A stretch of 64,000 bases of DNA from Gemmatimonadales bacterium (GCA_025927545.1 JAICLE010000006.1:11040-75039), one strand, 5' to 3'; positions 54,776 to 64,000 are shown, numbered from the stretch's first letter. A program made the numbers and translations. The notes: generated from the letters alone by a model not told the origin.

Positions 54776-55726
54776 ATGAGCGGGCGGGTATTGGTGACTG
54801 GCGGCGCCGGGTTCATCGGCTCCCACGTGGCGGAAGCGTTTCTGAAGGATGGATGGGACGTGGTCGTGCTCGACGATCTGTCGCGCGGCCACGAGCAGAA
54901 CATTCCCCAGGGAGCGCGATTCGTCTGTGCCGACATCCGCTCGGCCGAAGCCCGCCGCCTTGTCGCCACCGGGAAATTCGACGCCCTCAACCATCACGCC
55001 GCCCAGATCGACGTGCGCTTCTCGGTGGAGTCCCCCTCGGTTGACGCGGGAATCAACGTCGTCGGCCTGGTGAACCTGCTCGAGGGCGCGGGCGAAGGCG
55101 GCGTGAAGCGCGTGGTGTTCGCGAGCAGCGGCGGCGTGGTGTACGGCGATCCCGAGGTCATTCCGACTCCGGAGACCGCGCCCAAGCTGCCGGTTTCCCC
55201 CTATGGCGTGAGCAAGCTGGCGGGCGAGTACTATCTCCGTGCCATCGGCGCGCTCCGCGGGTTCGAGGGCGTGGCCATGCGCTATGCCAACGTCTTCGGT
55301 CCGCGGCAGGATCCGAAGTCGGAGGCGGGTGTGGTGTCGATCTTCGTCTCGCGGCTGCTGGAGGGACGGAAGCTCACCGTGTTCGGCGACGGCCGGCAGA
55401 CGCGCGACTACGTCTTCGTGAAGGACGTCGCCCGGGCCAACGTCCTGGCCACCACCGCCCGCCTTCCCGCCTCGGCCGACTTCAACGCCCCGGCCTTCAA
55501 CATCGCCACGTCCATCGAGCGTAACGTCCGGGAGCTCGCGGAATCGGTGGGGCAGGTCATGGGGCAGCAGCCGGAGCTCGAGTTCGCGCCGCCCCGGCCG
55601 GGCGAGCTGTTCCGGAGCGCGCTCGACACGAGCAAGGCGAAGGCGGTGCTGGGCTGGGCGCCGGAATGGACGTTCGACGACGGGCTCCGCCAACTGGTCG
55701 ACTGGTTCCGGAAGGAGGCCCGGTGA
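54776..55726 (+). CDS. NAD-dependent sugar epimerase (UDP-glucose 4-epimerase-like SDR)
   Basis: MSGRVLVTGGAGFIGSHVAEAF..., SPYGVSKLAGEYY (YxxxK), RYANVFGPRQDP. Confidence 0.8.
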   Translation: MSGRVLVTGGAGFIGSHVAEAFLKDGWDVVVLDDLSRGHEQNIPQGARFVCADIRSAEARRLVATGKFDALNHHAAQIDVRFSVESPSVDAGINVVGLVNLLEGAGEGGVKRVVFASSGGVVYGDPEVIPTPETAPKLPVSPYGVSKLAGEYYLRAIGALRGFEGVAMRYANVFGPRQDPKSEAGVVSIFVSRLLEGRKLTVFGDGRQTRDYVFVKDVARANVLATTARLPASADFNAPAFNIATSIERNVRELAESVGQVMGQQPELEFAPPRPGELFRSALDTSKAKAVLGWAPEWTFDDGLRQLVDWFRKEAR

Positions 55727-56436
55727 CGCTGCAGACCGCTGGGGCGGTGCCACGCGGGGCAGTCGAGCTGGTCCTGACCGCGAGCACCGAAACGAAGATC
55801 GTCCTGGGCATCACCGCGCTCTTCTCACTGGTCTCCTGGTTCATCATCGTGCTGAAGTGGTGGCAGTTCCGGAAGCTGAACCGGCAGGCGGACCGGTTCT
55901 TCGCCGAGATGGAGCGCACGACGCGGCTGCAGGACGCCTACCACGCCGTCATGAAGCAGCCGCCGTCGCCCTACAACCGGCTCTTCCGCGAAGCCATCAC
56001 CTTCTATTCCGAGCTGCGCCCGGGCGCGCTGCGAGAGGAGCGGGGCGCCGACCGCAGCTCTCTCACCACCACCCAGCTCGAGGCGCTCAAGATGGTCCTC
56101 GGGAAGGAAGTGGCCGCCGAGCGCGACCTGCTGGGCCACTACATCCCCTGGCTCGCCACGATCGGCTCCGTGAGCCCGCTGCTCGGGCTGCTGGGCACCA
56201 CGCTCGGCATCATCAACGCCTTCACCGGCATCGCGACCAAGGGCTCGGGCAACCTGGCGGCCGTCGCGCCCGGTGTCGCCGAGGCGCTGGTGGCGACGTT
56301 CGGCGGCCTGGCGGCGGCCATTCCGGCGGTCATCGCGTACAACCTGTACGTGAACCGGGTCCGGCTCTTTGCCGGTGAGCTCGAGGGGTTTGCCAACGAG
56401 TTGATCGGTACGATGGCCCGGGAGGGGCTGCTCTAG
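55723..56436 (+). CDS. tolQ: Tol-Pal system protein TolQ (MotA/TolQ/ExbB proton channel)
   Basis: GTG 55723 overlaps the epimerase stop (GTGA). Three TM spans. LATIGSVSPLLGLLGTTLGIINAF...AVAPGVAEALVATFGGLAAAIPAVIAYN. Confidence 0.85.
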   Translation: MTLQTAGAVPRGAVELVLTASTETKIVLGITALFSLVSWFIIVLKWWQFRKLNRQADRFFAEMERTTRLQDAYHAVMKQPPSPYNRLFREAITFYSELRPGALREERGADRSSLTTTQLEALKMVLGKEVAAERDLLGHYIPWLATIGSVSPLLGLLGTTLGIINAFTGIATKGSGNLAAVAPGVAEALVATFGGLAAAIPAVIAYNLYVNRVRLFAGELEGFANELIGTMAREGLL

Positions 56437-56868
56437 GTGTCTGCCGGATTGGGCGGGGGGCTGGGTAGCCAGCGGGGTGAGTTGCCGCTCATGGCCGACG
56501 TCAACGTCACCTCGCTGGTGGACGTGATGCTGGTGCTCCTGATCATCTTCATGATCACGGCACCGATGATGCAGGGCGGCGTCGACGTCGAGCTGCCGCG
56601 CGCCGAAGCGCGGCCGCTCTCCCCGAAGGAGGGGATGGTGGTCACCGTCAACCGCGACGGCCGCATCTTCGTCGACCAGACGCCGGTTTCCTACAATGAT
56701 TTTCGGGTGACTTTCCGCTCCCTCGTGACGACACGGAAGCCCACCGGAGTGTACCTCCAGGCGGACACGCGCGTGCCCTACGGGCAGGTGGTCCGGGTCC
56801 TGGCGATCATCCGCGGCGCCGGCATCCAGAATGTGGGCCTCGTGGCGGCGGAGGAAGAGACGCGGTGA
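56437..56868 (+). CDS. tolR: Tol-Pal system protein TolR (ExbD/TolR family)
   Basis: ADVNVTSLVDVMLVLLIIFMITAP (with the conserved Asp in the TM) and the periplasmic ExbD fold motif (YLQADTRVPYGQVVRVL). Confidence 0.85.
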   Translation: MSAGLGGGLGSQRGELPLMADVNVTSLVDVMLVLLIIFMITAPMMQGGVDVELPRAEARPLSPKEGMVVTVNRDGRIFVDQTPVSYNDFRVTFRSLVTTRKPTGVYLQADTRVPYGQVVRVLAIIRGAGIQNVGLVAAEEETR

Positions 56869-57563
56869 TCGTTCGCGCCGACCGTGGCCGCCCGCCGGGC
56901 ACCACGGTAGGACTGATCGGGACCGTTCTGGTGCATGCCGCGGCCGCGGCGTTCGCGTTCACCCAGGCGAGCCCGGTCAAGGCCGGGCCGCCGTCCTACG
57001 CCGTCGAGCTCGTGGCCGCGCCGGCTCCGGCGCCGAAGCAGCGGCTCGCACGTGAGGCGGTCCCGACGCCGCCGCCGCAGGAGAAGCCGGCACCGGTCAA
57101 GCCGCTGCCCAAGCCCAAGCCGCCGAAGACGCCGCCGGCCCCGGAGCCCAAGCCGCCACCGACCGAGACCGAGCGTGAGCCCCCGCCCAAGACCGCGGCT
57201 CCGGTCACGCCGGTCCCGGGCGAGACGCCGAGTACGGGGACCGATGTCGCCACGATCAAGACGCCGGGACTGCAGTTCCCCTTTCCGGAGTATCTGCGGA
57301 ACATCGTGACCCAGGTGTACCGCAGTTGGGACCGCGACGCGGCCGGCCAGAACAGCTTCGCCGAGATCAGCTTCCTCATTCTCCGGGACGGTTCAGTGCG
57401 CGACATTCGTTTCGTCACCCGCTCGGGCAGCTTCAGCTTCGACCTCGGCGCCCAGGGCGCCATCGAGGCGGCGGGAAACGCCCGCGCGTTCGGCCCGCTT
57501 CCCGATGGCTGGGATGCCGACGTCCTGCCCGTCAGCTTCTACTTCAAGCCGATCTCGCGATGA
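56865..57563 (+). CDS. TolA/TonB-like protein (N-terminal anchor, Pro/Lys-rich spacer, TonB_C-type domain)
   Basis: GTG 56865 overlaps the tolR stop. TM helix (LIGTVLVHAAAAAFAF), PKPKPPKTPPAPEPKPPP spacer and a C-terminal domain (EISFLILRDGSVRDIRFVTRSGSFSFDLGAQGAI). Position in the tol cluster supports the call. Confidence 0.7.
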   Translation: MIVRADRGRPPGTTVGLIGTVLVHAAAAAFAFTQASPVKAGPPSYAVELVAAPAPAPKQRLAREAVPTPPPQEKPAPVKPLPKPKPPKTPPAPEPKPPPTETEREPPPKTAAPVTPVPGETPSTGTDVATIKTPGLQFPFPEYLRNIVTQVYRSWDRDAAGQNSFAEISFLILRDGSVRDIRFVTRSGSFSFDLGAQGAIEAAGNARAFGPLPDGWDADVLPVSFYFKPISR

Positions 57564-58894
57564 TCAGACTGCTCGCCTGCGTGACCGCGCTGGCCGTGCT
57601 GGCGCCACTCGCTCCGGTCCGTTCCACCCGCGCCGCCGCTCAGGACACCAGCCAGGTCAAGGAAGGCGTCCGGGTCGGGGTGGAATACCAGCCAGGTGTG
57701 CGGCCGGGCCTGGTGGTGCTCCCGGGCGCCGGGCTGGATTCCGTCCGCGCCATCATCCGCCGCGACCTCGACTATAGCGACCGTTTCGAGATGATCACGG
57801 TGGCCGACGCGCCGTCCGGCGCCGGCAGCTCGGGCGTACCGGGGGGCGCCGTCAACTACGGCATCTATCGGGCGCTCGGTGCGTCGTTCGGCGTCGAGCT
57901 GCTGGAAGCGCCGGGCGGGGTGACGGTGCGCCTCCACGACGTCGGTGCCTCGCAGGTGCGGAACCAGCAGGCATTCAGCCTGCCGCCCGTCACGGACCCG
58001 GGCTTCCGGCTCGCGGTGCACCGGGTGGGCGACGAGGTGGCGCGCTGGGCCACGGGGACGGAGGGCATCGCCGCGAGCCGGCTGCTTTTCGTCGCCGGCG
58101 GGCGCGTCTACCGGGTGGATAGCGACGGAGAGGACATCGTGCCGCTCACGCCGGCCGGGCAGACCTCGCTCTCACCCACGTGGTCGCCGGACGGACAGCG
58201 CTTCGCCTTCACGCTGCTGGGAGCGGGGCGCGGGGGCGTGATGCTGCAGGGCATCGCCGGCGGTGCCGTGCAGCAGGCGCCCGGCACGGCGGCCGGACTC
58301 AACATCACCCCCGCATTCTCGCCGGACGGGCGCCTGCTGGCCTACGCGCACTCCGACGAGAGCGGCACCGACGTCTATCTCGCGAACATCGCCGATCGTT
58401 GCTGCGCGCAGCGCTTGACCGTAGGGCGCTTCGCGGACAACTTATCTCCAACGTTTTCACCAGATGGCCGCCGCATCGCGTTCGTCTCCACCCGTGCGGG
58501 GCCGCCCCAGATCTACGTCATGGCCGCCGATGGGACCGATCAGGAACTGCTCGCACCGTTCGATTACGGTGCGACGGGCAGCTCCAACGCGCCCGAGTGG
58601 TCGCCCGATGGGGCCAATGTCGTTTTCCATCGTGAAGTGTCCGGCAGTCCGCAGCTCTTCGTCGTCAGCGTGGCGGGGAGGCGGGTTCGGCAGCTTACGT
58701 CGTCCGGCCGCAACGAGGACCCGACCTGGGCGCCCGACGGCCGGCACGTCACCTTCGTGTCCGACCGGAGCGGCCGCCGGCAGCTCTGGGTCATCGATCT
58801 GGAAACCGGTCGCGTGCGCCAGCTCGATACGCCGGGCGCGGCGCGGCTGCCTGCTTGGTCCCGCCGCCTGAGTCGGACCGCCGTCGCCCCCTAA
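57560..58894 (+). CDS. tolB: Tol-Pal system beta-propeller protein TolB
   Basis: ATG 57560 overlaps the upstream stop (ATGA). A signal peptide is present. Repeated PxWSPDG / PxFSPDG blades (SPTWSPDGQRFAF, TPAFSPDGRLLAY, SPTFSPDGRRIAF, APEWSPDGANVVF, DPTWAPDGRHVTF). Confidence 0.85.
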   Translation: MIRLLACVTALAVLAPLAPVRSTRAAAQDTSQVKEGVRVGVEYQPGVRPGLVVLPGAGLDSVRAIIRRDLDYSDRFEMITVADAPSGAGSSGVPGGAVNYGIYRALGASFGVELLEAPGGVTVRLHDVGASQVRNQQAFSLPPVTDPGFRLAVHRVGDEVARWATGTEGIAASRLLFVAGGRVYRVDSDGEDIVPLTPAGQTSLSPTWSPDGQRFAFTLLGAGRGGVMLQGIAGGAVQQAPGTAAGLNITPAFSPDGRLLAYAHSDESGTDVYLANIADRCCAQRLTVGRFADNLSPTFSPDGRRIAFVSTRAGPPQIYVMAADGTDQELLAPFDYGATGSSNAPEWSPDGANVVFHREVSGSPQLFVVSVAGRRVRQLTSSGRNEDPTWAPDGRHVTFVSDRSGRRQLWVIDLETGRVRQLDTPGAARLPAWSRRLSRTAVAP

Positions 58895-58907
58895 CCTCGA
58901 ACTCGGA

Positions 58908-59489
58908 GTGATGATGCGCGCTAATTCCCTGATGCTGCTCCTGGCCTCCGCCGCGCTCGCCGCCGGGTGCGGCGGAAAGCCCGCGCCGGAGGAGCCGGCG
59001 CCCCAGCCGACCCCCGCAGCGGCTCCGGCCCCGGCGCCCGCCCCGGCCGACGATAGCGCCGAGCGCGACCGGTTGGATCGGGAGCGACTGGCGCGCGAGG
59101 CGGAGGAGCGCGCCAAGGCGGTGGCGGCGGACCTGGCCATGATGATCAACTTCGATTACGACCAGGCCACCGTGCGCCAGACCGATCAGGCCACGCTCGA
59201 CCGGAAGGCCGCCGTCCTGGCCGCCAACCCGAACGTCAAGCTCCAGATCAGCGGGCATGCCGACGAGCGGGGCTCGGACGAGTACAATCTGGCGCTCGGC
59301 AACCGCCGCGCCGCCGCGGCCAAGCGCTACCTCGAGAACAAGGGCATCGACGGCTCGCGTCTGGACGTGGTGTCCTATGGCGAGGAGCGGCCGCTCAACC
59401 CCGGCCACGACGAGGCCGCCTACGCCCAGAACCGCCGGGACGAGTTCCAGGTGACGGCGGGCGGCGATAACCTCGTCGCGCCGCAGTGA
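58908..59489 (+). CDS. pal: Peptidoglycan-associated lipoprotein (OmpA-family)
   Basis: Lipobox LAAGCGG. OmpA_C motifs (INFDYDQATV, ISGHADERGSDEYNLALGNRRAAAAKRYL, NRRDEF). The true start is probably ATG 58911 or 58914. Confidence 0.85.
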   Translation: MMMRANSLMLLLASAALAAGCGGKPAPEEPAPQPTPAAAPAPAPAPADDSAERDRLDRERLAREAEERAKAVAADLAMMINFDYDQATVRQTDQATLDRKAAVLAANPNVKLQISGHADERGSDEYNLALGNRRAAAAKRYLENKGIDGSRLDVVSYGEERPLNPGHDEAAYAQNRRDEFQVTAGGDNLVAPQ

Positions 59490-60295
59490 GCTCCCGGCCG
59501 CGGCGCCTGTGCGCCCGGCTCGCCGCGGGCTTCGTTGCCGTGGCGAGCCTGGGGGCCTGCGTCAGCAAGAGCGACGTGCAGATGGTGCAGGGCGAGGTGG
59601 CCCTGCTCCGGGCCGAGACGCTGCGGCGTGACTCCACCCGGGCGGCGCAACTTGGCGAAGTGATCCAGCTTCAGCAGCGTATCATGGATTCGCTCGCCGT
59701 GAGCCGCCGGACCGTGGGGCAGCTCAAGGGCGACATTGCCTCCGATCTTTACAACATCCAGCAGCAGCTGGTGCAGTTGCAGGAGCTCACCGGGCAGAGC
59801 CAGCAACGGCTGAGCGAGCTCCACACCCAGCTCGAGGCCCGCGGGGCGCAGATCGAGGCGTCGCCCAGCGGCGCGCCGCCCGCGCCGGGCGACAGCGCGC
59901 AGCCCGAGTCCGGCGGATCGGCCTCGGCCGACCAGATGTACGAGGCGTCGCTGGCGCAGCTTCGCCGCGGCAGCACCGCAACCGCACGGCTGGGCCTGCG
60001 CGAGATGCTCCGCACCTACCCCACGAGCCCGCGCGCTCCGGACGCGCTCTATTTCATCGGCCAGAGCTTCGCGGCGGAGAACCCGGACTCGGCCGCGGCC
60101 TACTACACGCAGGTGGTGGAGAAGTACTCGTCGTCCCCCCGGGCCGGCTCGGCCCTCTACAACCTGGGACTCCTTGCCGAGCGCCGGAAGGACACGGCCA
60201 AGGCGCGGGAGGCCTACCAGCGCGTGGTGCAGCAGTACCCGCAATCCGACGAGGCCGCGCTGGCTCGCGATCGACTGAAGGCGCTCGGGCGCTAA
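59486..60295 (+). CDS. cpoB: Tol-Pal system protein CpoB/YbgF (coiled-coil + TPR)
   Basis: GTG 59486 overlaps the pal stop. Signal plus lipobox-like ASLGAC. An N-terminal coiled coil rich in Q/L is followed by a TPR region (YEASLAQLRRGS...YPTSPRAPDALYFIGQSF...YPQSDEAALA). Confidence 0.75.
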   Translation: MSSRPRRLCARLAAGFVAVASLGACVSKSDVQMVQGEVALLRAETLRRDSTRAAQLGEVIQLQQRIMDSLAVSRRTVGQLKGDIASDLYNIQQQLVQLQELTGQSQQRLSELHTQLEARGAQIEASPSGAPPAPGDSAQPESGGSASADQMYEASLAQLRRGSTATARLGLREMLRTYPTSPRAPDALYFIGQSFAAENPDSAAAYYTQVVEKYSSSPRAGSALYNLGLLAERRKDTAKAREAYQRVVQQYPQSDEAALARDRLKALGR

Positions 60296-60315
60296 GCCCC
60301 GGGCGCCGCCGCCCC

Positions 60316-63300
60316 ATGACCGGCCCTGCCGGGGAGATGCCCTTCCTCGATCATCTCGAGGAGCTGCGCTGGCGCATTCTCCGCTCGCTCGGGGCCATCG
60401 TGGTGGGCTTCGGCCTGGGCCTCTGGCTGGTCCAGCACTTCCAGCTCGTCAATCTGCTCAAGCAGCCGATCGCGCCCTACCTCACCGGTGCCGGTGGGAA
60501 GCTGGTCGTGACCAGCCCCACCGATCCGGTCATGATCGTCTTCAAGCTCGGCTTCGGCGTCGGGCTGGTTCTCGCGTCCCCCATCATCCTGTGGCAGCTC
60601 TGGGCGTTCCTGGCGCCCGCGCTGTACGCGCGCGAGAAGCGGGCGCTGGTGCCGGCGCTGTTCGTCGGCCTGGTGCTGTTCCTCACCGGGGCGGTGCTGG
60701 CCTACCTCTTCGTCGTGCCCCAGGCGCTCCGGGTGCTGTTCAGCTTCCAGACCGAGGCGATCCAGCCGTTCATCACCTACGACGCCTACTTCGACTTCGT
60801 CCTGCAGGTGGTGCTGGCGCTGGGTCTCTCGTTCGAGCTCCCGCTCGTGATCATCCTGCTCGCATGGCTGGACGTAATCGGGCCCCCGGAGCTGGCGCGC
60901 TTCCGGCGCTTCGCGGTGGTGGGCGCATTCATCGCGGGCGCGGTGCTCTCCCCCGGCACCGATCTCGTGTCGATGATCATGATGACCATCCCGCTCCTCC
61001 TCCTGTACGAGGTGGGGTACGCGGGGAGCGTCGTCATCAGCCGGCGGCGCCGGAAGGCCGCCGCGCTGGCCGGGCTGGTGCTGCTGGCCCTGGGGCTCGG
61101 CGCCACCCCCGGCGCGGCCCAGGTTCCCGTGCAGCGGCCGCGCCCGCCGGTGCAGGCGGTCCGTCGCGACTCGCTGGGAGACACCACCCGGACGCGGCCG
61201 GGCCAGGCACTCGATAGTGCCACCGCGGGCCGGCTCGGGATCCCGACCGCTCCCAGCCGGAGCTTCGGCCCCGAGGACTCCGTGCTCAAGGCATTGAAGG
61301 AGCGGCCGGGCTACCAGTCCACGCGCTATCGCGCCGACTCGGCCACCGTCTTCATCGAGGGGCAGCGGGTGCTGCTCGAGGGCGAGGCCCTGACCGAGCG
61401 GCAGGGGGCGCTGCTCGAGGCCGACACCATCCGCTACCAACAGGAAAGCTGTCTGCTCGACGCGAGCGGGAGCCCGCGGCTCTTCGATCGGGGCCAGGTG
61501 CTCGTCGGGGAGGGGATCCGCTACGACACGTGCCGCCGCCGCGGCGTGGTGAGCGACGCGCTGACCAACTTCACCGAGGGGTCCACGGTCTGGTTCCTCC
61601 GCGGCAGCGTGGCGCAGGACTCGAGCTCGAGCCGCATCTACGCCGGCTCGAGCGAGATCACCAGCTGCGACCTTCCGACGCCGCACTACCACTTCAGTGC
61701 CCGCCAGGTGAAGTGGGTCTCCAAGAACGTGATGGTGGCGCGCCCGGTGGTGCTCTACGTGCGCGACGTCCCGATCCTCTGGCTGCCGTTCATCTTTCAG
61801 GATGTCCGCCCGGGCCGGCGCTCGGGCATCCTGGTGCCCCAGTTCGGCCTCAACGACTTGGTCCGGCCGACGCGAACCTACAACCGCCAGGTCACCAACA
61901 TCGGCTACTACTGGGCGCCGAACGATTACGTCGACCTCACCGGCCGGCTCGATTGGTTCGCCAACCGGTATGTGCAGTACGGCGTGAGCGGCCAGTACCG
62001 CTGGCTCAACCGGTTCATGGATGGTGCCGTCGGATTGAACGAGCAGCGCCAGGTCGGTGGCGGCTCCGGGCTCACGTTCCGCTGGGACCACCGCCAGCAG
62101 TTCAACCTCTCCACCAGCCTCAATTTCAACGTCAACTACGCCAGCAACACCGCGGTCATCCAGGGGAATGCCATCGATCCGCTGCAGAACACGCAGCAGA
62201 TCACCAGCTCGCTCAACTACTCCAAGCGATTCTCCTGGGCCACGCTGACGCTGGGCGGCAACCGGCGGCAGAGCCTGACCGACGGCAGCGTGCAGCAACT
62301 CCTGCCGGCCGTGACGCTCTCGCCGGTGCCGATCGCGCTGGGGTCGAACATCACCTGGTCACCGGGACTGAGCTACACCAACAACACGACCTCGAGCCCG
62401 TCCGCCGACACCCTGTTCCGGGTCCTCCCCGGCGGGCTCCTGGACACCCTCGCGCTCGACGGCAGCACGCGGGTGACCGCGCTGAGCCTGGACACACCGC
62501 TCCGCCTCGGCGGCTTCAACTGGCAGAACTCGGTGCAGATCAACGACCAGAGTTCGAAGGCCCCGCGGCAGACCACCTTCCTGGCCGACAACCCGGCGAC
62601 GCCGGATCCGACCGACAGCATACAGGTGCGCCGCACCTCGCTCGGCGATTTCGAAAGCTCGATCGACTGGGACACCGGCATCAATCTGCCCGTGCTGTTC
62701 CGCGGCTCCTGGAAGCTGCAGCCGGTGGTCGGCGTGGGGAACTCCACGTCGGGGCCATTCGCCATCCGGAACCGGAATACCAACGGGAGCTTCGTCCGGC
62801 AGGGCAAGCGGCTGAGCTTCGGGGCCACCGCGGCGCCGACGCTGTTCGCGTTCTTTCCCGGCATCGGGCCGCTGAGCCGCATCCGGCACAGCTTTTCACC
62901 CACCATCGTCTGGAACTACCAGCCGGCGGCGAACGTGCCCGAGGAGTACGCCCGCGCCGCCGCCCAGCCGGGACAGCCGATCGTGCTGCGGAGCGACGCA
63001 ACCCAGCGCGTGAGCATTTCGCTGGCGCAGAGCTTCGAGGGGAAGCTCCAGCCGCGCGGCCCCGACACGACCGGGGCCGAAGCGCGGAAGATCCGGCTGC
63101 TCAGCCTCACGACCAGCAGCCTCAGCTACGACTTCGAGCAGGCCAAGAAGCCGGGGTTCACCGGCTGGGTCACGCCCACGATCACCAACTCGATCCTGAG
63201 CGACCTGCTCCCCGGATTCAATCTCAGCCTTACGCACGACCTCTGGCGCGGCACGGTCGGTTCCGACACGGCCAAGTTCAGCCCGTTCCTGCAGAACGTG

Positions 63301-63828
63301 AGCGCGAGCTTCGCCATCTCGGGCGGGCTCTTCCGTTCGATCGGATCCATCTTCGGAATCGGCGGCAAGTCCGGCACCGAGACGCGCGGAGGCCCGGAGG
63401 CGCCCAGCTCCTACCTCGCCGAGTCGGGCCGGCGCACGCGGCCGGGCTCGTTCTTCACCAGCACCCAGGCGCCGCTGCAGCGGCCCGGCCGGAACTTCAC
63501 GGCCAACTTCAACTATCAGCTCACGCGCACCCGCCCGGTGAGCGGGGTGACCGGGCTGCCCACGCCCGGTAGCCGGCAGAGCCTCGGGTTCAGCACCAAC
63601 TTCTCACCCACGCCGTTCTGGTCGCTGTCGTGGTCTTCGCAGTACAACATCACCGACGGAAAGTTCGAGTCACAGGTGGTGCGGCTCGAGCGCGAGCTGC
63701 ACGAGTGGCGTGCGGGATTCAACTTCGTGCAGAACCCGAATGGGAACTTCGCGTTTTATTTTTCCATCTACCTGACGGATCTGCCCGACCTGAAGTTCGA
63801 CTACGATCAGACCACCATCGAGCGATAG
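60316..63828 (+). CDS. Single ORF encoding TatC (aa 1 to ~243) fused through a signal-peptide-like hydrophobic span to an LptD-like outer-membrane protein (aa ~270-1170)
   Basis: No stop codon in 1170 codons. TatC part: MPFLDHLEELRWRILRS..., six TM spans, LSPGTD. Junction: ISRRRRKAAALAGLVLLALGLGATPGAAQ. C-terminal part: OstA-like region, RRSGILVPQFG, YYWAPNDYVDLTG and a long beta-strand-like Y/F/N/S-rich sequence, as in LptD. Confidence 0.8.
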   Translation: MTGPAGEMPFLDHLEELRWRILRSLGAIVVGFGLGLWLVQHFQLVNLLKQPIAPYLTGAGGKLVVTSPTDPVMIVFKLGFGVGLVLASPIILWQLWAFLAPALYAREKRALVPALFVGLVLFLTGAVLAYLFVVPQALRVLFSFQTEAIQPFITYDAYFDFVLQVVLALGLSFELPLVIILLAWLDVIGPPELARFRRFAVVGAFIAGAVLSPGTDLVSMIMMTIPLLLLYEVGYAGSVVISRRRRKAAALAGLVLLALGLGATPGAAQVPVQRPRPPVQAVRRDSLGDTTRTRPGQALDSATAGRLGIPTAPSRSFGPEDSVLKALKERPGYQSTRYRADSATVFIEGQRVLLEGEALTERQGALLEADTIRYQQESCLLDASGSPRLFDRGQVLVGEGIRYDTCRRRGVVSDALTNFTEGSTVWFLRGSVAQDSSSSRIYAGSSEITSCDLPTPHYHFSARQVKWVSKNVMVARPVVLYVRDVPILWLPFIFQDVRPGRRSGILVPQFGLNDLVRPTRTYNRQVTNIGYYWAPNDYVDLTGRLDWFANRYVQYGVSGQYRWLNRFMDGAVGLNEQRQVGGGSGLTFRWDHRQQFNLSTSLNFNVNYASNTAVIQGNAIDPLQNTQQITSSLNYSKRFSWATLTLGGNRRQSLTDGSVQQLLPAVTLSPVPIALGSNITWSPGLSYTNNTTSSPSADTLFRVLPGGLLDTLALDGSTRVTALSLDTPLRLGGFNWQNSVQINDQSSKAPRQTTFLADNPATPDPTDSIQVRRTSLGDFESSIDWDTGINLPVLFRGSWKLQPVVGVGNSTSGPFAIRNRNTNGSFVRQGKRLSFGATAAPTLFAFFPGIGPLSRIRHSFSPTIVWNYQPAANVPEEYARAAAQPGQPIVLRSDATQRVSISLAQSFEGKLQPRGPDTTGAEARKIRLLSLTTSSLSYDFEQAKKPGFTGWVTPTITNSILSDLLPGFNLSLTHDLWRGTVGSDTAKFSPFLQNVSASFAISGGLFRSIGSIFGIGGKSGTETRGGPEAPSSYLAESGRRTRPGSFFTSTQAPLQRPGRNFTANFNYQLTRTRPVSGVTGLPTPGSRQSLGFSTNFSPTPFWSLSWSSQYNITDGKFESQVVRLERELHEWRAGFNFVQNPNGNFAFYFSIYLTDLPDLKFDYDQTTIER

Positions 63829-63913: not shown

Positions 63914-64000
63914 ATGCGTGCCCGGCCGATTCCCCTGCTGCTGCTTGCCGCCGCCGCGTGCTCGTCCAATGACCGGAGTGGGCCGGGCGTGCCGCCGGAC
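63914..64000 (+). CDS. 5' end of a putative lipoprotein gene (continues beyond window)
   Basis: ATG 63914 is preceded by GGAGA. MRARPIPLLLLAAAACSSN is a signal peptide with lipobox. Only 29 codons are visible. Confidence 0.35.
   Translation, partial: MRARPIPLLLLAAAACSSNDRSGPGVPPD

What the first reader, a model, noticed from the sequence alone, without database searches (positions are those of the whole stretch)
60316..63828. TatC fused in one reading frame to a ~900-residue LptD-like outer-membrane protein
Seen in the sequence:
- 60316..63828 is one uninterrupted 1170-codon ORF.
- Residues 1 to ~243 are a complete TatC: the MPFLDHLEELRWRIL start, six hydrophobic spans, and LSPGTD before the last span.
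- Where TatC normally stops, the frame continues with RRRRK followed by AAALAGLVLLALGLGATPGAAQ (nt ~61036..61122). That is a basic patch plus a hydrophobic span ending in small residues, which looks like a Sec signal peptide or a seventh TM helix.
- About 900 residues with LptD hallmarks follow: an OstA-like N-terminal part, then RRSGILVPQFG and YYWAPNDYVDLTG (compare E. coli LptD RRSGFLIP and YYWNIAPNMDAT), then a long beta-rich region.
- The only canonical in-frame start near the junction is GTG 61012, inside the last TatC helix. The Val codons just before RRRRK are GTC.

Established knowledge: the TatC C-terminus is cytoplasmic, so one extra span would place the LptD-like part in the periplasm.

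Inference, three alternatives:
- A genuine fusion, possibly processed by signal peptidase after ..PGAA.
- An in-frame nested lptD-like gene initiated internally.
- A lost stop codon or an assembly error.

I am not aware of a described TatC-LptD architecture. The ORF directly follows tolQ-tolR-tolA-tolB-pal-cpoB, forming one contiguous envelope-biogenesis block.
Basis: partly seen in the sequence, partly recalled or inferred. Interest (0 to 1): 0.75.

Follow-up and report, generated by a model that had tools for sequence, protein, structure and literature searches.

The report
TatC fused to an LptD precursor
In many uncultured Gemmatimonadota the gene for an inner-membrane protein-export subunit (TatC) has merged in frame with the next gene, the outer-membrane lipopolysaccharide inserter LptD, keeping LptD's signal peptide at the joint, so one polypeptide is most likely cut by signal peptidase into two ordinary proteins; the fusion is real, recurrent and apparently undescribed, but probably modest in mechanism.

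Summary
The 1170-codon ORF (60316..63828, +) is real. Residues 1-247 are a complete TatC (Pfam 2e-60, above the NCBIfam equivalog cutoff). Residues 269-1170 are an LptD-type protein (Pfam LptD_2 5e-36; the 15 best PDB fold matches of the AlphaFold model are all LptD).

It is not an assembly error. All 120 listed protein clusters are full length with both domains, and 76 of 80 species-level genomes carry the same fusion in frame, some on multi-Mb long-read contigs. Fused forms reach 37% identity and also occur in Longimicrobiales.

Seven of eight stand-alone lptD loci examined have a separate tatC abutting lptD (gap of 0-6 nt or a 4-nt overlap); L068 has none. G. aurantiaca T-27 TatC is 254 aa. 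A rough tree and differing junction scars suggest several independent fusions.

The joint reads TM6, Arg patch, 16-residue hydrophobic span, A-x-A|Q. Across 77 sequences -1 is A/G/S in all, -3 is A/L/V/G, -2 is free and +1 is always Gln. This aligns with the signal-peptide cleavage site of stand-alone LptD.

Best explanation: a Sec-inserted seven-span precursor cut by signal peptidase I after A268, giving TatC plus one helix and mature LptD. Cleavage is inferred. No conserved internal start exists. New variant of a known kind.

The parts
60316..63828 (+). Whole fused ORF, 1170 codons plus a TAG stop. It encodes the TatC-LptD precursor.
   Evidence: Identical or near-identical full-length proteins are P0001-P0120.
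60316..61056 (+). TatC module, residues 1-247: six predicted membrane helices and the native juxtamembrane Arg patch. The Pfam domain covers residues 12-226 (nt 60349..60993).
   Evidence: Pfam PF00902 E 1.9e-60 and TIGR00945 at 204 bits (cutoff 132.7). Full-length alignment to Aquifex and E. coli TatC; reading that alignment, window E16/E107 match E. coli E15/E103. Foldseek target TM 0.73-0.77 to 4b4a and 9dzz.
60964..61038 (+). TatC TM6 and its end (residues 217-241, LVSMIMMTIPLLLLYEVGYAGSVVI).
   Evidence: Alignment to the last helix of 4b4a and 9dzz. Kyte-Doolittle peak at 217-231.
61012..61014 (+). GTG (V233), the only in-frame candidate internal start near the junction. Judged not to be a conserved start.
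   Evidence: GTG in 42 of 57 loci that have Val here, against 56% GTG for Val overall. The residue is Ile, Leu, Thr or Ala in 20 of 77. No SD-like motif upstream.
61042..61056 (+). RRRRK basic patch (residues 243-247). It is the cytoplasmic C-tail of TatC and doubles as the n-region of the internal signal peptide.
   Evidence: Median net charge +5 across 77 sequences. Aligns with TRKKKE of Aquifex TatC and RRRKR of split TatC.
61057..61104 (+). Hydrophobic span AAALAGLVLLALGLGA (residues 248-263): the h-region of the internal signal peptide, or seventh membrane span.
   Evidence: Kyte-Doolittle 2.32. Median h-region 17 residues. Aligns with the h-region of stand-alone LptD signal peptides.
61105..61122 (+). 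c-region TPGAA and +1 Gln. Predicted signal peptidase I cleavage between A268 and Q269 (nt 61119|61120).
   Evidence: Across 77 sequences: -1 is A 74, G 2, S 1; -3 is A 51, L 16, V 6, G 4; -2 is free (2.84 bits); +1 is Q in 77 of 77. The same A-x-A|Q occurs in stand-alone orthologs.
61120..61305 (+). Low-complexity Pro/Arg/Ala-rich N-terminal linker of the mature LptD-like protein (residues 269-330).
   Evidence: pLDDT below 50 for residues 250-297. Composition. A similar linker is present in stand-alone orthologs.
61321..61803 (+). Predicted LptA/OstA-like beta-jellyroll domain (residues 336-496). It holds the protein's only three Cys (379, 406, 451).
   Evidence: Profile matches to the LptD N-terminal domain and to LptA/LptH. 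Precomputed PF03968 hit on fused homologs P0137 and P0289. All-beta in the model, and Foldseek alignments span full-length LptD. Cys positions.
61888..63816 (+). Predicted LptD-type outer-membrane beta-barrel (residues 525-1167). The best Pfam LptD_2 stretch is residues 474-669.
   Evidence: Pfam PF19838 at 124.8 bits (cutoff 22.5). Foldseek E down to 8.4e-27 to LptD structures 8h1s, 9kn3, 4q35, 7omm and 5iv9, target TM 0.48-0.61.
55666..60295 (+). Upstream envelope block: tolQ (55666..56436), tolR (56437..56868), tolA-like (56865..57563), tolB (probable ATG 57560..58894), pal (58908..59489) and cpoB-like (59486..60295).
   Evidence: Pfam MotA_ExbB, ExbD, TonB_2, PD40, OmpA and TPR_6/YfiO. The same order occurs in fused and split relatives.
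63915..64000 (+). Start of a conserved lipoprotein gene (MRARPIPLLLLAAAAC...), cut by the window end.
   Evidence: Sequence. Orthologs with an invariant lipobox Cys follow lptD in L084, L082, L081 and L068. No Pfam match.

Best explanation
This is a genuine, inherited, in-frame fusion of two neighbouring housekeeping genes, tatC and lptD. In the rest of the phylum the two genes are separate but nearly always abut.

How the fusion was built (inferred from comparing fused and split loci): it removed TatC's short hydrophilic tail, its stop codon and the n-region of LptD's signal peptide. TatC's own cytoplasmic Arg patch after TM6 now serves as the n-region of LptD's retained signal peptide.

Proposed mechanism (inferred, not shown):
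1. The ribosome translates one 1170-residue precursor.
2. The six TatC helices insert co-translationally, with the N- and C-termini in the cytoplasm (established TatC topology).
3. The seventh hydrophobic span (residues 248-263) inserts N-in/C-out and starts Sec/SecA-driven export of the roughly 900 residues that follow.
4. Signal peptidase I cuts after A-x-A (A268|Q269).
5. The products are a TatC carrying one extra C-terminal helix, which stays in the inner membrane, and a normal mature LptD with N-terminal Gln. The LptD then goes to BAM and the outer membrane.

Shown: the fusion, its recurrence, the domain identities, the conserved cleavage motif, and its homology to a true N-terminal signal peptide.

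Inferred: the cleavage itself, and any advantage of fusion such as 1:1 synthesis or co-translational delivery of a large outer-membrane protein.
For: The fusion is real and old:
- All 120 listed protein clusters (71-100% identity) are 1138-1181 aa and carry both Pfam domains.
- 76 of 80 species-level genomes have both parts in one stop-free frame. Three exceptions are cut by contig ends.
- The fusion sits on a 2.0-Mb long-read contig with conserved synteny.
- Fused representatives reach 37-39% identity and occur in Longimicrobiales.
- Junction length varies from 34 to 44 residues in 10 length classes, yet is always in frame.

The domains are what they appear to be:
- TatC and LptD_2 family matches.
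- Profile against PDB: TatC 1e-67, LptD 2e-13, plus LptA.
- AlphaFold model at pLDDT 78. Its top 15 Foldseek hits are full-length LptD, and TatC structures match at target TM 0.73-0.77.

The hydrophobic span is LptD's signal peptide:
- Stand-alone orthologs start with n-h-AxA|Q, and this aligns with the junction.

The cleavage site looks selected:
- -1 is A/G/S in 77 of 77 (0.27 bits).
- -3 is A/L/V/G in 77 of 77.
- -2 is free (2.84 bits).
- +1 is Gln in 77 of 77.
- The motif is also kept in separately placed fused lineages.

Origin from a tightly abutting pair:
- Seven of eight stand-alone lptD loci have tatC directly upstream, with a gap of 0-6 nt or a 4-nt overlap.
- G. aurantiaca T-27 has a single TatC of 254 aa (PMC3827258 supplement).

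Precedent, from my own knowledge: the Bradyrhizobium FbcH cytochrome b-c1 precursor is split at an internal signal peptide (Thony-Meyer et al. 1991 PNAS 88:5001). The reference is listed in PMC6976685, but I could not read the paper itself.
Against: - No experimental evidence for cleavage is available: no proteomics, N-terminomics or western blot.
- No dedicated predictor such as SignalP or DeepTMHMM could be run. The signal-peptide call rests on the n/h/c anatomy, the -3/-1 rule and homology.
- AlphaFold draws TM6 and the seventh span as one continuous helix (217-259) with low confidence after residue 250. It gives no support for, or against, a TM6-TM7 hairpin.
- The short loop between TM6 and the h-region (about 15 residues) could in principle hinder access of signal peptidase.
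- Conservation of A-x-A|Q could partly reflect recent ancestry within clades. However, it also holds across lineages at 35-50% identity.
Confidence: 0.8

Rival explanations
1. Nested gene. The LptD-like protein is made mainly or additionally from an internal start, such as GTG 61012 (V233), as an ordinary precursor with an N-terminal signal peptide. The full-length fusion would then be a minor or irrelevant product.
For: - GTG at V233 precedes a sequence that would make an acceptable signal peptide (VGYAGSVVISRRRRK plus the h-region).
- GTG is mildly over-represented at that Val: 42 of 57, against 56% GTG for Val in these ORFs.
- SD-like motifs are rare even at real starts here (3 of 74), so their absence proves nothing.
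Against: - The position is not a start codon in 35 of 77 sequences. It is Ile, Leu, Thr or Ala in 20, and GTC or GTA in 15.
- No other in-frame start is conserved in position.
- L058 and L071 have no ATG, GTG or TTG at all between TM6 and the h-region.
- With no stop after TatC, every ribosome that starts at tatC must read through into LptD. The fusion polypeptide is therefore made regardless.
- The frame is maintained through 10 junction-length classes.
Confidence: 0.1
2. Uncleaved fusion. The seventh span is a permanent anchor and the protein stays in one piece. Either the Pro/Arg-rich linker of about 60 residues spans the periplasm between inner-membrane TatC and the outer-membrane barrel, or the LptD-like part works at the inner membrane.
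For: - A 60-70-residue disordered linker follows the span. Fully extended, it could cross a periplasm.
- LptD's N-terminus is periplasmic, so the arrangement is topologically allowed.
- No experiment shows cleavage.
Against: - The same linker exists in stand-alone orthologs, so it is not an adaptation to tethering.
- The -3/-1/+1 pattern typical of signal peptidase I is held at near-zero entropy in all fused lineages, while neighbouring positions drift. Nothing would maintain it without cleavage.
- Fused and split forms alternate among close relatives, which implies the products are functionally equivalent.
Confidence: 0.07
3. Artefact or decay: an assembly or sequencing error, or a recently lost stop codon producing a non-functional read-through.
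For: - Most sequences come from metagenome-assembled genomes.
- Some long-read loci carry frameshifts (L002, L010, L035).
Against: - The same in-frame junction occurs in 76 species-level genomes and hundreds of clusters from independent short- and long-read assemblies, down to 37% identity.
- The observed frameshifts lie elsewhere in the gene, never at the junction.
- Both halves keep full-length family matches and conserved residues.
Confidence: 0.01

Closest known systems
Split tatC-lptD gene pair of other Gemmatimonadota (loci L081, L082, L085-L089; G. aurantiaca T-27 TatC of 254 aa)
   Same: - Orthologous genes in the same order and the same tolQRAB-pal-cpoB context.
- The same downstream lipoprotein gene in L081 and L082; tatA downstream was seen only in L082.
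- LptD carries the same A-x-A|Q cleavage motif.
   Different: - In these lineages TatC ends with a 15-25-residue hydrophilic tail and a stop codon.
- lptD has its own start, with a gap of 0-6 nt or a 4-nt overlap, and its own short n-region.
- In the window all of that is deleted and the two frames are joined.
Bradyrhizobium japonicum FbcH cytochrome b-c1 polyprotein (Thony-Meyer, James & Hennecke 1991, PNAS 88:5001). Cited from my own knowledge; the reference is listed in PMC6976685 but the paper was not readable here.
   Same: - A polytopic inner-membrane protein is fused upstream of an exported protein.
- An internal signal peptide is cut to give two separate mature proteins from one gene.
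   Different: - The two FbcH products are subunits of one complex and stay in or at the inner membrane.
- Here the products belong to two unrelated machines (Tat export and LPS insertion), and the second ends up in the outer membrane.
- Cleavage is demonstrated for FbcH and only inferred here.
Proteobacterial LptD (for example PDB 4q35, 5iv9, 8h1s, 7omm, 9kn3)
   Same: - Predicted N-terminal beta-jellyroll plus a very large C-terminal beta-barrel.
- RRSG and YYW motifs.
- Foldseek E down to 8e-27 over about 900 columns; profile E 2e-13.
   Different: - Only 8-12% sequence identity in the structural alignments.
- Matches Pfam LptD_2 (PF19838), not the proteobacterial equivalog models (24 bits against a cutoff of 944).
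- About 900 mature residues, with a long disordered N-terminal linker.
- All three Cys lie in the N-terminal domain, so an E. coli-type interdomain disulfide is not possible (the E. coli disulfide is from my own knowledge).
- No LptE partner has been identified.
Canonical six-helix TatC (Aquifex aeolicus 4b4a/4hts; E. coli 9dzz)
   Same: - Full-length alignment at 35-38% identity in the structural alignments.
- The Glu residues recalled as signal-binding are conserved.
- A basic C-terminal tail.
   Different: After the predicted cleavage, this TatC would keep a seventh membrane helix with a periplasmic C-terminus. I do not know of this for any characterised TatC.

Membership tests
TatC (twin-arginine translocase subunit C) | Full-length match to the family models above the curated cutoffs | tested here: met
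   Pfam PF00902 at 204.7 bits (cutoff 25.1), covering profile positions 1-208 of 208. NCBIfam TIGR00945 equivalog at 204.2 bits (cutoff 132.7).
TatC (twin-arginine translocase subunit C) | Six membrane helices with the TatC fold | tested here: met
   Six hydrophobic peaks in residues 25-231. Helices in the AlphaFold model. Foldseek target TM 0.73-0.77 to 4b4a, 4hts and 9dzz. This rests on prediction, not experiment.
TatC (twin-arginine translocase subunit C) | Conserved Glu residues of the twin-arginine signal-binding site (E. coli E15 and E103; their role is from my own knowledge) | tested here: met
   Reading the alignment to E. coli TatC (9dzz_A) places window E16 and E107 opposite E15 and E103.
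TatC (twin-arginine translocase subunit C) | A TatA/B partner encoded in the genome | tested here: inconclusive
   The window ends 172 nt after the ORF. In the syntenic fused locus L084 a TatA_B_E gene lies about 6 kb downstream, and likewise in split locus L082.
LptD (LPS-assembly outer-membrane protein) | Match to an LptD family model above cutoff | tested here: met
   Pfam LptD_2 PF19838 at 124.8 bits (cutoff 22.5). The proteobacterial NCBIfam equivalogs are far below cutoff (24 against 944 and 19 against 683), so this is the divergent LptD_2 branch. NCBI names stand-alone orthologs 'putative LPS assembly protein LptD'.
LptD (LPS-assembly outer-membrane protein) | N-terminal OstA/LptA-like beta-jellyroll followed by a very large C-terminal beta-barrel | tested here: met
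   The profile matches the LptD N-terminal domain and LptA/LptH. PF03968 is recorded on fused homologs P0137 and P0289. The top 15 Foldseek hits of the model are full-length LptD over about 900 columns. The strand number (26 in known LptD, from my own knowledge) was not counted.
LptD (LPS-assembly outer-membrane protein) | Plug lipoprotein partner (LptE) and the rest of the Lpt pathway in the genome | not tested
   Whole genomes could not be scanned. A conserved lipoprotein gene of unknown family directly follows lptD. It is only a candidate partner.
LptD (LPS-assembly outer-membrane protein) | LPS insertion activity | not testable with these tools
   Function is inferred from family and fold only.
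Signal peptidase I substrate (Sec-type cleavable signal peptide), here internal | Positively charged n-region, hydrophobic h-region of about 10-20 residues, c-region with small or neutral residues at -3 and -1 | tested here: met
   Median net charge +5 and median h-region 17 residues. -1 is A 74, G 2, S 1; -3 is A 51, L 16, V 6, G 4; no charged residue or Pro at either position, in 77 of 77.
Signal peptidase I substrate (Sec-type cleavable signal peptide), here internal | Homology to a true N-terminal signal peptide | tested here: met
   The span and its A-x-A|Q align with the N-terminal signal peptides of stand-alone orthologs: L068, P0128, P0130, P0138 and P0171.
Signal peptidase I substrate (Sec-type cleavable signal peptide), here internal | Actual cleavage in the cell | not testable with these tools
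   No proteomic data and no dedicated predictor were available.

The most novel reading that the evidence does not exclude
The fusion is not neutral but selected, and that is why it arose several times. Three non-exclusive readings remain open:
- Riding behind TatC, the LptD precursor is brought to the Sec translocon co-translationally (SRP-type targeting by the TatC helices) instead of post-translationally. This would be a new delivery route for a very large, aggregation-prone outer-membrane protein.
- The seventh helix left on TatC changes how the Tat receptor complex is built.
- A fraction of the protein stays uncut and ties the inner and outer membranes together at the Tol-Pal locus product sites.
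Probability: 0.15. Interest if true: 0.8.

Novelty: new variant of a known kind. Interest (0 to 1): 0.55.

Why it matters
- **A natural experiment in membrane-protein biogenesis.** An essential outer-membrane beta-barrel precursor is synthesised as the C-terminal extension of a polytopic inner-membrane protein. Its signal peptide is internal, after six membrane spans. If cleavage is confirmed, it is a second clear bacterial case of the FbcH type, 'one gene, two membrane proteins via an internal signal peptide', and the first I know of that joins two different envelope machines.
- **Comparative power.** Closely related lineages carry split or fused versions in the same context, and the fusion seems to have arisen repeatedly. 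The system can therefore be used to ask whether co-translational delivery or fixed 1:1 synthesis of TatC and LptD gives an advantage.
- **Annotation.** Public annotation names these 1170-residue proteins only 'TatC'. Surveys of Gemmatimonadota would then miss LptD, and pathway reconstructions could wrongly report the LPS export pathway as incomplete.

Tried and rejected
1. **Assembly error or lost stop:** rejected on recurrence.
2. **Shine-Dalgarno analysis as a test of internal initiation:** uninformative. SD-like motifs are rare even at real starts (3 of 74).
3. **General +1 Gln 'Q-rule' in these genomes,** which would have strengthened the signal-peptidase reading:
   - My crude regex scan gave Gln at +1 in 10% against a 4.4% background (n=78). 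It was contaminated by cytoplasmic proteins, so it is inconclusive and not used.
   - The Q-rule paper (PMC5837995) did not sample Gemmatimonadetes.
4. **Retrieving the FbcH paper:** DOI and PMC51795 are not held. Only its reference was confirmed. Full-text searches for fbcH were unproductive.
5. **Rfam scan of the window:** no RNA family.
6. **Pfam on the downstream lipoprotein:** no match.
7. **AlphaFold as evidence for a TM6-TM7 hairpin:** the model draws one continuous helix with low confidence after residue 250, so it says nothing either way.
8. **A second tatC or lptD in the same genomes:** not testable.
9. **Literature search for a prior description** of a TatC-LptD fusion: nothing found.

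Full report
**1. Observation**

The ORF 60316..63828 (+) is uninterrupted for 1170 codons and ends in TAG.
- MPFLDHL at residues 8-14 and LSPGTD at 211-216.
- RRRRK at 243-247, then AAALAGLVLLALGLGA at 248-263 and TPGAA|Q at 264-269.
- RRSGILVPQFG at 501-511 and YYWAPNDYVDLTG at 531-543.

GTG 61012 (V233) is the only in-frame ATG/GTG/TTG between TatC's last helix and the hydrophobic span, and the two Val codons before RRRRK are GTC. The window is 69.9% G+C, so long ORFs alone mean little. Here, though, the whole length has homology support.

**2. Identity of the two halves**

TatC part:
- Pfam TatC matches residues 12-226 over the entire profile (E 1.9e-60). The NCBIfam tatC equivalog scores 204 bits against a cutoff of 132.7.
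- It aligns end to end with Aquifex and E. coli TatC. Reading that alignment, E. coli E15 and E103 correspond to window E16 and E107. I recall those two residues as the twin-arginine signal-binding glutamates.

LptD part:
- Pfam LptD_2 (PF19838) matches with E 4.8e-36. The proteobacterial LptD equivalogs match only weakly.
- A profile of 89 homologs finds TatC structures at 1e-67, Neisseria LptD at 2e-13, and LptA/LptH for the N-terminal domain.

AlphaFold model of the full protein (mean pLDDT 78.4):
- TatC helices at 10-211.
- One long helix at 217-259.
- A low-confidence stretch at 250-297.
- An all-beta domain at 336-496.
- A very large beta-sheet region at 525-1167.

In Foldseek against the PDB, the 15 best matches are full-length LptD (E down to 8.4e-27, about 900 aligned columns, target TM 0.48-0.61). 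They are followed by TatC structures at target TM 0.73-0.77. The protein has three Cys, all in the N-terminal domain, so an E. coli-type interdomain disulfide cannot form.

**3. The fusion is real and widespread**

- A search of 5.8 billion proteins gave 1445 hits. All 120 listed (71-100% identity; NCBI, JGI, ENA and Logan sources) are 1138-1181 aa with both Pfam domains. Where named, they are called 'twin-arginine translocase subunit TatC [Gemmatimonadales bacterium]'.
- In one-genome-per-species contigs, the junction segment matched 339 places. Of the 80 kept, 76 have TatC and the LptD part in one stop-free frame. Three are cut by contig ends.
- Three long-read loci have frameshifts elsewhere in the gene, none at the junction.
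- On a 2.0-Mb contig the fused gene sits in the order tolQ-tolR-tolA-tolB-pal-cpoB, fused gene, lipoprotein, further genes, tatA.
- An exhaustive search of 50%-identity representatives found fused proteins down to 37% identity (P0136, P0137). A second homolog search found them also in Longimicrobiales (P0290).

**4. Split relatives**

- Eight stand-alone lptD loci were examined. In seven, a separate tatC of 249-269 codons lies directly upstream:
  - 1-nt gap (L081), 2-nt gap (L085), direct abutment (L086), 6-nt gap (L088).
  - 4-nt overlap (L082, L087, L089).
- In the eighth, L068, cpoB is followed directly by lptD with no tatC.
- The cultured type species G. aurantiaca T-27 has a single TatC of 254 aa (PMC3827258: table, supplement). 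This may explain why the architecture has gone unnoticed.
- In split forms TatC ends ...RRRKR plus a 15-25-residue hydrophilic tail. LptD then begins with a short n-region, an h-region and A-x-A|Q.
- In fused forms the tail, the stop and LptD's n-region are missing. TatC's Arg patch abuts the h-region directly.

**5. Repeated origin**

- On a neighbour-joining tree of the LptD part (125 sequences), fused and stand-alone forms interleave. Fitch parsimony needs at least 9 changes, with an unfused root.
- The tree is rough, but two independent observations agree with it:
  - P0137's LptD part is 44-48% identical to stand-alone proteins and only 35-39% identical to other fused ones.
  - The junction scars differ. 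P0290 keeps an AAAEAAAEAG tail like that of split TatC, and P0368 keeps a tail and what looks like LptD's old N-terminus.

**6. The junction is a signal peptide under selection**

Across the window plus 76 loci:

| Feature | Value |
|---|---|
| Net charge between TM6 and the h-region | median +5 |
| h-region length | median 17 residues |
| Position -1 | A 74, G 2, S 1 (0.27 bits) |
| Position -3 | A 51, L 16, V 6, G 4 |
| Position -2 | free (2.84 bits) |
| Position +1 | Gln in 77 of 77 |

- This is the classical -3/-1 pattern for signal peptidase I.
- The motif aligns with the cleavage region of the N-terminal signal peptides of stand-alone orthologs. It is retained in the distant fused lineages.
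- Junction length ranges from 34 to 44 residues in ten length classes without ever breaking frame. This shows selection for read-through.

**7. Internal initiation**

- The Val equivalent to V233 is GTG in 42 of 57 cases, against 56% GTG for Val overall. It is replaced by Ile, Leu, Thr or Ala in 20 of 77.
- No other start is conserved in position. L058 and L071 have no start codon in the interval.
- SD-like motifs are rare even at true starts, so they are not informative.
- A separate internal product cannot be excluded in individual species, but it is not a conserved feature.

**8. Mechanism**

TatC has its N- and C-termini in the cytoplasm (established knowledge, consistent with the solved structures matched here). 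The Arg patch therefore stays inside, and the seventh span inserts N-in/C-out. The A-x-A motif then faces the periplasm, where signal peptidase I acts.

I infer cleavage after A268. It would give TatC with an extra C-terminal helix (268 residues) and a 902-residue mature LptD starting with Gln. The closest precedent I know is the Bradyrhizobium FbcH cytochrome b-c1 precursor (reference confirmed; paper not readable).

Confidence:
- That the fusion is genuine: about 0.97.
- That it is cleaved as proposed: about 0.8.

**9. Novelty**

Three full-text searches found no description of a TatC-LptD fusion, and none of the listed Gemmatimonadota genomics papers mentions LptD. Both protein families and the processing principle are known. 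The combination, its recurrence and the seven-span TatC product are new. I rate it a new variant of a known kind, of moderate interest.

Noticed in passing
window 63915..64000; L084 13638..14492; L082 10981..11817; L081 5498..6646; L068 8791..9933: A lipoprotein gene (window: MRARPIPLLLLAAAAC...) with an invariant lipobox Cys directly follows lptD in both fused and split lineages. It has no Pfam match; the gene at the same position in L085 and L086 shows only a faint Fn3_SaeA_3rd hit. It could be an LptE-like partner of this divergent LptD.
   Followed up: partly
L068 5782..8661 (JBDTTF010000011.1): This is the one Gemmatimonadota genome found where cpoB is followed directly by a stand-alone lptD with its own signal peptide and no tatC at the locus. 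Where its tatC lies is unknown.
   Followed up: partly
L044 (JBLMWC010000166.1): This contig is labelled 'Bacillota bacterium' but carries a fused tatC-lptD that is 59-73% identical to the window's. It is probably mis-binned or mislabelled.
   Followed up: no
L085 4683..5204; L086 4656..5171; L087 4713..5210; L088 3712..4221: In the Longimicrobiales-like lineages an nrdR gene sits just upstream of tatC (between cpoB and tatC in L085, L087 and L088). The Gemmatimonadales loci lack it.
   Followed up: no
L084 19778..20032; L082 15220..15468: tatA lies about 4-6 kb downstream of the tatC-lptD unit, after a TPR protein, a polyprenyl synthase and DUF4321. A SurA-like PPIase is on the opposite strand in L084. 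The Tat genes are thus near each other but interrupted by envelope genes.
   Followed up: no
window 57560..57650 (TolB start); L068 3018..; L082 4506..: TolB signal peptides also end in A-x-A|Q (RAAA|QDTS, PLAA|QDST, PAAA|QDQ). This hints at a Bacteroidetes-like preference for Gln at +1 in this phylum. My crude scan was inconclusive (10% against a 4.4% background).
   Followed up: partly
L002, L010 (TatC part); L035 (LptD part): Frameshifts split the fused gene in three long-read (MFD) assemblies. None is at the junction, so they are probably sequencing errors.
   Followed up: no
window gene starts 55666..60337 and 74 related loci: Shine-Dalgarno-like motifs are rare upstream of gene starts (3 of 74 at the conserved MPFLDHL Met of tatC). 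Neighbouring genes often overlap by 4 nt, for example tolA/tolB and pal/cpoB.
   Followed up: partly
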